In this document: positions 18,558 through 47,705 of the stretch, one piece after another
Numbering within the stretch: the first letter of the stretch is position 1
Layout: each line of letters begins with the position of its first letter
Source: Chrysomallon squamiferum
Taxonomy: Eukaryota > Animalia > Mollusca
Length of the DNA: 64,000 nt
Assembly (NCBI GenBank): GCA_012295275.1
Contig: CM022676.1
Coordinates: 6,014,001 to 6,078,000 of the forward strand
Direction of reading: 5' to 3'
Made by a program: the position numbers and the translations under genes
The notes under the pieces: generated by a model
Databases searched by the model: none
What the model saw: the letters and a program-made list of their open reading frames with translations, nothing else
Told to the model about the DNA's origin: nothing

Positions 18558-18671
18558 TACTAATGTTTGTTTTTTGTTTTGTTTTTTCAGGTAAGTGAAA
18601 AATGAGTTTTCAGACCAAACTTTATCTATCAATTGCTTTCATCTGCCATTTTCACCTTCTGAAAGGTTTGT
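18558..18671 (+). other. Candidate recursive splice site (ratchet point) 1 with cryptic RS-exon 18591-18665
   Basis: Branch-point match TACTAAT 18558-18564, T-rich tract 18566-18587, CAG 18588-18590 directly followed by GTAAGT 18591-18596. Second donor AAG|GTTTGT at 18665/18666. The 75-nt interval has early stops in all three frames. Confidence 0.6.
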
Positions 18672-21600
18672 GATATTATATTAGTTTTTAGTTTTTTTAT
18701 ACTTTTCATATTAGATGTGCTTAATTATTTGTGTTAATGTCAGTATGTGTTTCTCTCTGTATGTTTGTGTATGTCTACATATCTCTGTATGTATGTATGG
18801 ATGTATTTGTATGAATGAAATATACTGGAGTATGAAAGTATATTATGTATGTGTGCGTGTGTGTGTGTGTGTGTGTGTGTGTGTGTGTGTGTGTGTGTGT
18901 GTGTGTGTGTGTGTGTGTGGACATATATTATCTGTGTGTCTGTGTTTATGTATATTTTAATAATTCTGAGTGCAATTTTTCGTATTTTTATGGCCGAATT
19001 TGCTATATAAATGTTTAAGAAGTCTTTTTCAATTAAGGTACAAATAACTTTAAGAAAAAGAAGAAGAAATATAGGACTTCTAGGCAGAATAATAAAATTA
19101 AGATGAAAGAAAAATTAGATAACATGTTAAGAAATAATGAATAAGAACAAAGAAAAAAGTCTAAATATGAAAAGAAGAATTAATTTTAAATTTTTTTTTT
19201 TTATTAATTTGTAAAATAAGCAATAGCTACTACACATCAAAGAAAATCTGAGATTTTTTTTCTAAAGATAAGAAGAAAAAAATCTATATTGAAAAATTAA
19301 GATATATTATAAAACTAATTATATAAATAACAAAGAACTGAATAAACTTTTCACCACCCACAGTAAAAAAAAAAAAAAAAAAATTAATATAATATATAAA
19401 TAAATGAACAGATTAATTAATTAATTAATTAATTAAAAAAAAAAAAGAAGTACAGAAATTAAAAATTAAGAAACAAAATACAAAGAAAAAAAACTTTGGC
19501 TAAGATAAAGGAATAAAAAAGAAAGAGGTTAAAACTAAAATTAAAAGCTGGAAAAAAAAATTAAATAAAAAAATGGATGCTGAAAAACTGTTGCCAGTAT
19601 TTGGCACTTAACAAAGGTGAAAATAGAAAAATTCATTTTGACAACCCCCAAAAAAAAAGTTTAAAGAAAAAAAAAAAGAAAAAAAATATATATAAAGAAA
19701 GAAAAATTAAGAAAAAAAAAATATAAAGAAACAAAAAAAAAAAAAAAAAAAAAAAAAAAAAAAAAAAGAAAAAAAAAAAAAAAAAAAAAAAGTAAAAAAA
19801 ATATAGCAAAACGTATTTTAAAAAAAGATTCAAACAAAAAAAAGAACAGAAAAAAAAAAGCCTGACATGTTGGTATGTTTCCATCTTGTATACCTCACTG
19901 ATATTATTTCACAAGACTGTCACTTTTAGAAGCTTCCTGATAAACTTTGAACACTATGCACAGGTTTCTGTCTTTAGAATACTTCTTCCATGTATACAGC
20001 TCCCTCTAATGGCCAACTGCAGTAACTGGATCAGATAAAACTAAAATACGTTTTAGAATACTTCGCAGAGTCCATTGCTTGTGTTAAAAAGAGAAAAGAA
20101 TGTGTGTGTGTGTATATATGTATATATTTTATTATTATTATTATTATTATTACTACTACTATTATATTATTATTATTATTTTATTATTGTTATTATTATT
20201 ATTATTATTATTATTATTATTATTATTATTATTTTATTATTTTTTTGTTGTTGTTGTTACTATGAAAACTGTAGCTATAATGATTTAAAAAATTATCTTA
20301 TTACACTTTAATACACACTTCGGTACATTTTGTTTTAGTGGAGATCAGCCTTTCTTGATAATAAAGTATATGTCCATATTTGATATTTTAAACAGAGCAC
20401 ATAAACACATTTTCTTTATTTTCAAATAACTTTTATTTATTTATTTTTTTAAAAGTGTATTTGACTAGTAAAACAAATTACAAAATACATTTTTAATTAT
20501 AGAGATAAATCTTTGTTAATAATAAAGGATATATATATATATATATATATAATTTTCTTTTTTTTTTGTAATTTTTTTTGGTGGGGCAGGAGAGTTTGTA
20601 AATTTTCAAGTAACTGTTTTATTATTTATTTTCTAAAAATGTACCAAAAATATAAAACAACTAGCAAAATTTTTTTTTTTTTTGTTTAAGAACATCAGTC
20701 TTGTAACAAAATATATCCTTAACTTTGATGATTCAGACAAAGACAGTTTGTATATCTTCAAATGACCATTTTATTCTTCTTAAAGAAACAAAAATCATTT
20801 CTCAATCTGTCAGCATGTCTTTTTTTTTTTTTTTAAAAAGCATGTACACCACACTTTTATTTTATAAAACTGTTCTAAAGTTTATTTTCAAGATGTCTTT
20901 CCTCCATAAAGATTGAAATCTGGAAAAAAAAAATAAATAAAATGTCTGACCCCCAACAGTTGCACCCATTTTGCTGTAATTGCTTGATAAAGTGAAAAAT
21001 TGTCTTTTAACAGGATTTTTTTTTTCACAGCTGAAATGTTAGTTTTTTGCCTGACAGTCAAGAATTATAAATGTAGAAATCCCAGTGGGGGTGGGTGGGA
21101 CATATGGGTGTGTGTGCCCTCCACCCCTCTAGGGCATTAAAAAAAAAAAAAAAAAAAAAAATGTAATAACTAATATTTTATATAGTATGCATCATATAGA
21201 CGATGTTTTTAAAAACAGTTCTTATCTCTGTGTGTAATATGTAATCAGATTTCTCACACATTTTAAAAAGATAACTGCTGACTACTGGGTATGTATGTAT
21301 ATATATATTCATGGGGACTGTGTTTAATTTCAAACTCTTACCATATACCCCCTTTTTATCAAGTGCAATATTTATAATGAATGCTCCCCCCCCCCGGGCA
21401 GGTGTGGAAACGTATCTCAATGACTGCTCCCTTAATCAGATGACCCTTCGCTTTACGCTGTCTGATAGAACTTTCTTTATTGTCAACACATGTTGGTGTG
21501 GTTTTGGCTCTCGGTAAACTCTGGCATGAAAAGAGTTTTTATTGCAGTTGATAACCCACTTCAGACTTTTTTTTATCTCAAACTGTTGAGTTTTAGTGTT

Positions 21601-46325: not shown

Positions 46326-47605
46326 CTCTTGTCTGGTTTTTAGATAGTAGTATTTAAAATACTTTTCAATATGGCAGCTGAATCTCATGAGAAAAACATA
46401 TATACAAATCTTGTAATGTAAATAATAATAATAATGATGTATTTCAGAAATTTTTATCATGAAGAAAGAAAAACAAATCACATAAAATATTACAATTTAA
46501 TATAGATTTTATTATAAATGTAATTAAGGGTGGTAATACCATGTTATGTGTGTGTGTATGTGTATATGTGTCTGTGTGTGTGTGTGTGTGTCTGTGTGTG
46601 TGTGTGTGTGTGTGTGTGTGTGTGTGTGTGTTCTTATGTGTCTGTGGGAATCTTTACATATATGAATGTATATGTTGTGTGTGTGTGTATTTATGTATCA
46701 CCTATCTATCTGTCTGTCTGTCTGTCTGTGTGTTTCACAAGGTACAAAAGTATGTGTGTCAGTATGTACATCTGTCTGGTTTCTTCCATGGCATATATAT
46801 TCAAAATCTTTATGTCTCTCGTACTTTTCACCTTCGAGTTTAACTACCTTTCAGGCATGAAATAACTTTAAAAAGTCATTAATTTTATTTTACTTTATAT
46901 CTTTTTGGTCAGGTATTTATAGAGCAAGTCTTGATAAATTGCAAGACTATTTTACTTAGACTGGATTCTGATGATTTTTTGATGTTTTGTCCCATCTGGT
47001 ATCCATTATAGACACTTTTAATACTATCTTCTTCAAAACTGTTACTGCTTTTTAATTAAAATAGATTTCTTCCTCTGAAATCTGTTCCTACCCCTAAACC
47101 CTCACCTGAAAAGTTTTTTTTTTTTTTTTTTTTTTTTTTTATTGTAGAGTTGTTTGTTAGTTTTAGGGGTTTTTTGTTTTTGTTTAATTTTATTATTATT
47201 ATTATTATTATTATTATTATTATTATTATTATTATTATTTATTATTATTATTATTGATTATTTATTATTTATTAGTTGTATTAAAGATTATTTATTCATT
47301 TATTTATTGTTTTGTACTAATTATATTTTGTTTTGTAAAAAAAAAAATGTTTGTACTATTTATTCTTCTCATTTTTGAATATTTATTTTATTTCATTTTC
47401 ATTACATTTCATTTTAATGGGTGGGATTTATTTTGTGTGTGTGTTTCTTTTTTTTTTTTAAATTCTATTTCATTTCAATTTATATTCTTCATCTTATATA
47501 AGTTATACCTTTTTACTATCAGAGCAGTCAAATTCAGTTCTATTATATTTCAGATTTTATTCTTCATTTTATATGTTTTAACTCTTTATTACCAGCACAG
47601 CCAAA

Positions 47606-47705
47606 AATAACACATTTTACTTTTTTTCTTTCTTTCAGGTAAGTTCCTAAGAGATAAATAAAATCTGGTTTGTAAAGAAATAATTTTGAAGAAAGTGAGG
47701 TAAGA
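47606..47705 (+). other. Candidate recursive splice site (ratchet point) 2 with cryptic RS-exon 47639-47699
   Basis: Branch-like AATAAC 47606-47611, pyrimidine tract 47615-47635, CAG 47636-47638 followed by GTAAGT 47639-47644. Second donor GAG|GTAAGA at 47699/47700, and another AAG|GTAAAG at 47728/47729. Stops in all three frames. Confidence 0.6.

What the first reader, a model, noticed from the sequence alone, without database searches (positions are those of the whole stretch)
18558..47705. Pair of same-strand ratchet points 29 kb apart: probable recursive splicing of a giant intron
Seen: both sites share the 12-mer TTTCAGGTAAGT, with an upstream pyrimidine tract, a branch-like A 27-28 nt before the junction, and a second donor 61-75 nt downstream. 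I see no coding exon between them or elsewhere in the 64 kb. Established: YAG|GTAAGT juxtapositions defined by short cryptic exons are the recursive-splicing sites of long Drosophila and mammalian introns. Rough estimate (independent bases, ~30% GC by eye): about 0.01 chance copies of that 12-mer per strand per window, though T-runs inflate this. Inference: the window is the interior of a plus-strand intron longer than 64 kb that is removed in steps of tens of kb. I know of little documentation of this in lophotrochozoans, the tentative lineage.
Basis: partly seen in the sequence, partly recalled or inferred. Interest (0 to 1): 0.75.

Follow-up and report, generated by a model that had tools for sequence, protein, structure and literature searches.

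The report
Likely recursive splice sites in snail
Two back-to-back "intron end / intron start" signals 29,000 bases apart on one strand of an apparently gene-free stretch of what is probably a snail genome have the full sequence layout of the stepping stones that fruit flies use to cut very long introns out in pieces, so this region is likely spliced stepwise, although no spliced RNA was found to prove it.

Summary
Observation confirmed. TTTCAG|GTAAGT occurs only at 18590|18591 and 47638|47639, both on +. They are the two best acceptor+donor sites of 297 AGGT. Two such sites on one strand arose in 1 of 900 local-composition simulations. Both have TT at -5/-6, a branch-like A at -28/-29 and a short downstream exon with stops in all frames. 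The second donor is strong at site 2, weak at site 1. Both were found post hoc, and one RNA contig breaks the 13-mer. Not shown: host gene, junction reads, saw-tooth, conservation; no genome is held. One minus-strand site scores nearly as well. Best reading: fly-type ratchet points, about 0.7. The scan already noted the same motif in octopus and annelid genomes, and it is published for insects and sea urchin. New member of a known kind.

The parts
18558..18564 (+). Site 1 branch-point-like TACTAAT (candidate branch A 18563, -28)
   Evidence: fly recursive branch points lie at -36..-21 (10.1101/006163)
18564..18590 (+). Site 1 pyrimidine tract and acceptor ...TTTCAG; no other AG for 157 nt upstream
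18591..18596 (+). Site 1 donor GTAAGT directly after the acceptor (candidate ratchet point 1)
   Evidence: spanned by two contigs of run X1 with no substitution listed in these 6 nt
18591..18665 (+). Candidate cryptic RS-exon 1 (75 nt, stop codons in all three frames), closed by a weak donor AAG|GTTTGT
18655..18667 (+). 13-mer CCTTCWGAAAG|GT shared with site 2, at the downstream donor
   Evidence: an X2 RNA contig differs at 18656
18591..47638 (+). Predicted middle recursive segment, 29,048 nt
   Evidence: inference
47605..47611 (+). Site 2 branch-point-like AAATAAC (candidate branch A 47610, -29)
47615..47638 (+). Site 2 pyrimidine tract and acceptor ...TTTCAG
47639..47644 (+). Site 2 donor GTAAGT directly after the acceptor (candidate ratchet point 2)
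   Evidence: spanned by an X1 contig whose nearest listed substitutions are 47537 and 47647
47639..47699 (+). Candidate cryptic RS-exon 2 (61 nt, stops in all three frames), closed by a strong donor GAG|GTAAGA; a 90-nt form would end at 47728
47718..47730 (+). Second copy of the 13-mer CCTTCWGAAAG|GT, at the +90 donor
17090..20090 (.). T-rich zone upstream and A-rich zone (from about +500) downstream of site 1; among the lowest-GC parts of the window
46140..49140 (.). T-rich to A-rich switch centred on site 2 (local peak at 47640 with 1.5-kb windows)
47463..47605 (+). Diverged tandem duplication (70 nt, 77% identical) holding the weaker upstream AGs of site 2

Best explanation
The two sites are likely ratchet points (recursive splice sites) inside a very long plus-strand intron, which would be removed in at least three steps. 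Shown in the DNA: each site is a strong acceptor (branch-like A, pyrimidine tract, TTTCAG) fused to a consensus donor (GTAAGT), followed 61-90 nt later by another donor. Inferred, by analogy with Drosophila: the acceptor is recognised by exon definition across the short cryptic exon; an upstream exon outside the window splices to 18591 and regenerates a donor; that donor outcompetes the cryptic exon's own donor and splices to 47639, releasing a 29-kb lariat; the step repeats towards an exon beyond the window. Both cryptic exons carry stops in all three frames, so mis-inclusion in a coding region would likely send the message to decay. The U-rich zone upstream would help load the acceptor and the A-rich zone downstream would deny the new donor a nearby false acceptor (speculative).
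For: Top 2 of 151 plus and 146 minus AGGT by a splice-site matrix built from recalled generic frequencies. The only 2 of 295 AGGT that meet all 7 fly-style rules; the next plus site meets 5 (thresholds set after seeing the sites). Both plus-strand AG|GTAAGT follow strong acceptors: 2 of 54 strong AGs against 0 of 2873 weak AGs. 1 of 900 simulations gave two on one strand. TT at -5/-6 (196 of 197 fly sites), branch distance and 29-kb spacing fall in the fly ranges (10.1101/006163). Two sites in 64 kb (about 3 per 100 kb) is near the fly long-intron density of 2.2 and far above the 0.00-0.12 antisense background of PMC2773006 Table 2 (a different scoring rule). Independent of the motif, with 100 nt on each side left out, the two sites rank 1 and 2 of 53 strong acceptors for T-to-A skew switch (statistic chosen post hoc). 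Hints of a plus-strand gene body: (TC)n arrays 25 against (GA)n 5; T>A in 26 of 32 masked 2-kb blocks; CpG o/e 0.42 with TpG/CpA excess (no genome baseline; links to transcription and gene-body methylation recalled). One RNA library (X2) has a contig just downstream of each site: 18603 to beyond 18848 at depth 5.2 and 47742-47999 at depth 2.1; unstranded, DNA carry-over not excluded.
Against: The window was selected from many for this motif; under assumed rates my likelihood ratio ranges only from 1.4 to 93. A minus-strand site at 39521 meets 6 of 7 rules, so at a lower cut-off (19.5 bits) the strand count is 3 to 1. Looser motifs show no plus-strand excess: YAGGTRAG 2 plus against 6 minus. 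Site 1's downstream donor is weak and no better than chance. At site 2 a 43-nt or 38-nt exon ending at the same donor is possible (acceptors 7.7 and 6.5 bits, open in two frames). No host gene is identified. (TG)n, (TTA)n and GC skew show no strand bias.
Confidence: 0.68

Rival explanations
1. Chance: an AT-rich, T-run-rich genome makes strong acceptor+donor juxtapositions now and then, and a scan over many windows picks up a window with two.
For: Window selection. Chance rate per strand is 0.00-0.04 at this score and up to 0.3 at 19.5 bits. A near-miss site exists on the other strand. T-rich zones favour pyrimidine tracts, so part of the skew association could be cause and not effect.
Against: 1 of 900 simulations. 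Both sites also have a well-placed branch-like A, TT at -5/-6 and downstream donors. Other strong acceptors do not share the skew switch. The minus site lacks a branch match, sits at the opposite skew extreme, and lies in a cluster of six CAGGTR/YACCTG words with a local inverted repeat.
Confidence: 0.17
2. The donors are real but close ordinary short or non-coding exons (5' UTR, lncRNA or poison cassette) whose 3' ends happen to be U-rich; at site 2 this would be a 43-nt exon (47596-47638), possibly used as a 'distal exonic' recursive site.
For: They are the two strongest donors on the plus strand (13.4 bits each). Site 2 has upstream acceptors at -43 and -38. Distal exonic recursive sites are described in human (PMC10156609, passages).
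Against: Site 1 has no AG for 157 nt, and the candidates beyond are AAG, GAG or a 7.6-bit TAG 266 nt away. The putative exon bodies look like branch point plus pyrimidine tract. Site 2's upstream AGs lie in a diverged tandem duplication.
Confidence: 0.1
3. They are recursive exons that are sometimes kept (as Ubx mI/mII, or EJC-protected mammalian RS-exons), acting as regulated poison or 5' UTR exons of 75 and 61/90 nt.
For: Site 2's downstream donor is strong (10.9 against 13.4 bits); the shared 13-mer at the downstream donors could be a regulatory element. Donor competition and exon sequence set inclusion in flies (PMC8605326, first part read).
Against: Stops in all frames; the ratchet donors are perfect consensus; the X2 contigs run on past both downstream donors into intron (site 1) or start beyond them (site 2); the 13-mer is altered in one contig.
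Confidence: 0.05

Closest known systems
Drosophila intronic ratchet points with cryptic RS-exons (Ubx, kuz, Bx, luna). Seen: 10.1101/006163 whole text; PMC8605326 first of 6 parts; PMC6110457 passages
   Same: AG|GT with strong acceptor and donor, TT at -5/-6, branch A at -28/-29, short stop-containing cryptic exon with a weaker donor, segment length within 2.6-63.6 kb.
   Different: No RNA junction, saw-tooth, lariat or conservation evidence here. Cryptic exons are 61-90 nt against about 50. Fly RS-exon bodies are described as poorly conserved, whereas these two share a 13-mer. A kilobase-scale T-to-A switch is not mentioned in the parts I read. Different phylum.
Computational RP-site enrichment in large introns of mosquito, bee, beetle and sea urchin (PMC2773006, passages incl. 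Table 2)
   Same: Motif-only inference; sense-strand excess over the complementary strand.
   Different: That study used annotated introns genome-wide; the string 'mollus' does not occur in its main text. Here one window, no annotation.
Mammalian RS-exons and distal exonic recursive sites (PMC6224609 listing and abstract start; PMC10156609 passages)
   Same: Acceptor followed directly by a regenerated donor; exon definition through a downstream donor.
   Different: Most mammalian RS-exons are included in mRNA (PMC8605326 introduction); these carry stops in all frames and look skipped.

Membership tests
Drosophila-type intronic ratchet point | Strong 3' splice site directly followed by strong 5' splice site (YAG|GTRAG) | tested here: met
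Drosophila-type intronic ratchet point | TT at -5/-6 and prominent pyrimidine tract | tested here: met
   both sites; criterion
Drosophila-type intronic ratchet point | Branch point at -36..-21 | tested here: met
   sequence match only: -28 and -29; use not shown
Drosophila-type intronic ratchet point | Short cryptic RS-exon closed by a downstream donor weaker than the ratchet donor | tested here: inconclusive
   site 2 yes (+61, 10.9 bits); site 1 only a weak donor (+75, 5.1 bits) at chance level
Drosophila-type intronic ratchet point | RS-exon frame-breaking or stop-containing | tested here: met
   stops in all three frames of both
Drosophila-type intronic ratchet point | Lies on the sense strand of a long intron of a host gene | not testable with these tools
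   no genome held; only compositional hints and no Pfam/Rfam hit in the window
Drosophila-type intronic ratchet point | Reads joining an annotated upstream donor to the site | tested here: inconclusive
   only assembled contigs of three small RNA runs were available; tables were cut
Drosophila-type intronic ratchet point | Saw-tooth coverage and recursive lariats in total RNA | not testable with these tools
   no raw reads offered; contigs carry one depth each
Drosophila-type intronic ratchet point | Core conserved across species | not testable with these tools
   no homologous locus found; within-species contigs only, too few differences to be informative
Drosophila-type intronic ratchet point | Sense over antisense enrichment | tested here: inconclusive
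   2 to 0 at 22.9 bits, 3 to 1 at 19.5 bits in one window
Distal exonic recursive site / ordinary microexon | An exon with its own upstream acceptor ends at the YAG | tested here: inconclusive
   possible at site 2 (43 or 38 nt), unlikely at site 1

The most novel reading that the evidence does not exclude
Snails splice giant introns recursively with a larger signal than flies are known to use: each ratchet point sits at a kilobase-scale U-rich to A-rich switch, which could fold back to loop out the cryptic exon or steer acceptor choice, and a shared motif (CCTTCWGAAAG|GT) marks or masks the cryptic exon's donor. This would be a lineage-specific code for zero-length exons.
Probability: 0.12. 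Interest if true: 0.68.

Novelty: new member of a known kind. Interest (0 to 1): 0.4.

Why it matters
Recursive splicing is shown by RNA in flies and mammals and predicted by motif counts in other insects and sea urchin. My searches of the held library found no paper on it in molluscs: 'recursive splicing'+'mollusc' 0; 'recursive splic'+'octopus' 0; 'recursive splic'+'mollu' 2 papers with one mention each on other subjects, listing and abstract start only. Subscription journals are mostly not covered. If confirmed it would fill in the third large branch of bilaterians and suggest that stepwise removal of long introns is ancestral. It is an expected extension, not a surprise, and the scan already holds better-placed octopus and annelid cases. 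What this locus adds is a probable gastropod example and two testable flanking features.

Tried and rejected
No whole genome is held, so host gene and genome-wide strand counts were impossible. Sequencing-run search: no RNA holder listed; one holder of unrecorded kind (X1) and three RNA runs added by study. Laying X1-X4 on 47280-49320 and 17960-18848 (2930 of 64000 bases): no joint or loose end is listed at 18591 or 47639, but only contigs were available and 57 and 31 loose-end rows and 145 and 191 piece rows were not shown. X3 and X4 show only pieces of 37 nt or less. X2 shows no long contig upstream of either site; part of that stretch was skipped as repeat, so this is no evidence of a saw-tooth. 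Metagenome scans: site 2 pattern 0 hits; site 1 pattern 6 hits, all unrelated outside the pattern (at most 23 matching bases). Look-alike stretches in other scanned genomes: 0 for window 1-12000 and for 47500-47800. Rfam: 0. Pfam: one hit below cut-off (DUF2207_C, E 0.008) in 148 ORFs, rejected. Duplication of one site from the other: no similarity between the two 800-nt neighbourhoods among the top 14 blastn rows; the MAFFT alignment was out of register and uninformative. Hairpin over the downstream donors: a 4-5 bp stem is predicted but is no more stable than shuffles (z -0.6 and +0.35; whole cryptic exons z about 0), so it is not supported. True inverted repeats between the T-rich and A-rich flanks: only low-complexity matches of 70-79%, plus T/A runs. 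Spliced-leader RNA considered by eye for an Sm-like word after site 2: absent at site 1, no Rfam hit, rejected. One literature search returned only unrelated mollusc papers among the 15 listed of 10,183.

Full report
Setting. The window is about 30% GC and 24% tandem repeat. No Rfam match. Of 180 filtered reading frames of 30 aa or more I scanned 148 against Pfam and none reached a cut-off; short exons remain possible. No genome is held. Earlier AI notes on other pieces of the same genome call it a snail, possibly a vent snail; I could not test this.

Observation. TTTCAGGTAAGT occurs twice, at 18585 and 47633, both plus; shuffles give 0.04 and 0 of 100 reach two. With a splice-site matrix from recalled generic frequencies the sites score 23.6 and 22.9 bits, the best of 151 plus and 146 minus AGGT; the best minus site is 39521 at 19.7. 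Of 54 strong plus-strand acceptors 2 are followed by GTAAGT, against 0 of 2873 weak AGs. Local Markov nulls gave two such sites on one strand in 1 of 900 runs. Because the window was chosen from many, I computed a rough likelihood ratio with assumed rates: 1.4 to 93 for real ratchet points over chance.

Anatomy. Site 1: TACTAAT with A at -28, a 24-nt U-rich tract, no other AG for 157 nt, a 75-nt downstream segment closed by AAG|GTTTGT (5.1 bits, chance level). Site 2: AAATAAC with A at -29, a clean tract, a 61-nt segment closed by GAG|GTAAGA (10.9 bits; 1.8% of random positions have a 10-bit donor at +30..+100) and another donor at +90. Both segments have stops in all three frames. Duff et al. 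(10.1101/006163, whole text) give TT at -5/-6 in 196 of 197 fly sites, branch points mostly at -36..-21 and segments of 2.6-63.6 kb; both sites and the 29,048-nt spacing fit. On seven such rules, set after I had seen the sites, only these 2 of 295 AGGT score 7 of 7; the minus site scores 6 and the next plus site 5.

First, composition. With 100 nt on each side left out, upstream-minus-downstream T-A skew over 1.5 kb ranks the two sites first and second of 53 strong plus acceptors; they lie at the 99th and 98th percentile of all positions, and one local peak falls at 47640. The effect persists after repeat masking (97th percentile) and fades at 3 kb; other peaks (31217, 57806) have no such site. 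The minus site lies at the opposite extreme. The statistic is strand-symmetric and post hoc. The arms match only as low-complexity T and A runs, so a specific fold-back is not shown. Second, both sites carry CCTTCWGAAAG|GT at a downstream donor (18655-18667, 47718-47730), the only two copies in the window even with one mismatch. A shared word this informative arose in 1.0% of 2954 random pairs of 110-nt stretches, and 6 of 11,085 plus-strand AGGT pairs share 8 of 9 upstream bases, this pair among them. Against it: at site 2 it marks the third donor, not the strongest; the predicted hairpin is no better than shuffles; and an RNA contig of run X2 differs at 18656, inside the motif.

Is it inside a gene? 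(TC)n arrays outnumber (GA)n 25 to 5, T exceeds A in 26 of 32 masked blocks, and CpG o/e is 0.42 with TpG and CpA excess; (TG)n, (TTA)n and GC skew are even. From recalled knowledge these fit a methylated, plus-strand gene body, but blocks are not independent and there is no genome baseline.

RNA and alleles. Run X1 (kind not recorded) has contigs across both junctions: two at 18502-18636 with substitutions listed at 18605 and 18606 (18561-18590 was skipped as repeat, so the tract cannot be judged), and one at 47398-47999 with 7 other letters, none listed between 47538 and 47646. At about 1% divergence this says little. RNA run X2 has a contig from 18603 on (depth 5.2) and one at 47742-47999 (depth 2.1), both just downstream of a site, where nascent coverage should peak; they are unstranded and may be DNA. 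The joined form was not obtained, so the decisive test is open.

Mechanism. By analogy with Joseph et al. (PMC8605326, first part) and Pai et al. (PMC6110457, passages): exon definition across the cryptic exon, splicing of the upstream exon to the acceptor, regeneration of GTAAGT, which outcompetes the cryptic donor, then the next step. All of these steps are inferred. Rivals: chance (0.17), ordinary short or non-coding exons or a distal recursive site, plausible only at site 2 (0.10; PMC10156609 passages), and regulated inclusion (0.05).

Novelty. The kind of system is well known. Motif enrichment is published for four insects and sea urchin (PMC2773006 passages). Searches found no molluscan report in the held library; no supplements were read. 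The scan already has 35 notes on this theme in at least 5 genomes, among them two octopus introns and annelid cases, none under 'snail'. I file it as a likely new member of a known kind, with membership unproven, and score interest 0.4.

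Noticed in passing
window 39370-39560 (minus-strand AG|GT at 39521): Densest cluster of CAGGTR/YACCTG words in the window (6 in 260 nt, of 63 in all), with a local inverted repeat (fold z -3.0 on the minus strand). Resembles clustered ZEB/Snail-type E-box sites (recalled), or is a minus-strand ratchet decoy.
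   Followed up: partly
window 40980-41738, 38475-38843, 14012-14731, 47748-48229: Minisatellites: 32-nt unit x24, a different 32-nt unit x11, 44-nt unit x13, and about 152-nt unit x3 starting just after site 2's downstream donors.
   Followed up: no
window 48315-49004: No contig of X1 was laid here although both sides are covered; may be a filter effect or a length polymorphism.
   Followed up: no
window, about 20 islands of 45% GC or more (e.g. 4401-4775, 15951-16300, 29601-29875, 50126-50350, 62351-62650): Non-repetitive GC-richer islands without Pfam hits; candidates for conserved non-coding elements, useful anchors for finding the orthologous region.
   Followed up: partly
window 31217 and 57806: Other strong T-to-A skew switches with no strong AG|GT site; the first coincides with the end of a long (TC)n array.
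   Followed up: no
window 18216-18402 and 47463-47605: Each site has a short diverged tandem duplication (62 and 70 nt, 76-77% identical) within 400 nt upstream.
   Followed up: no
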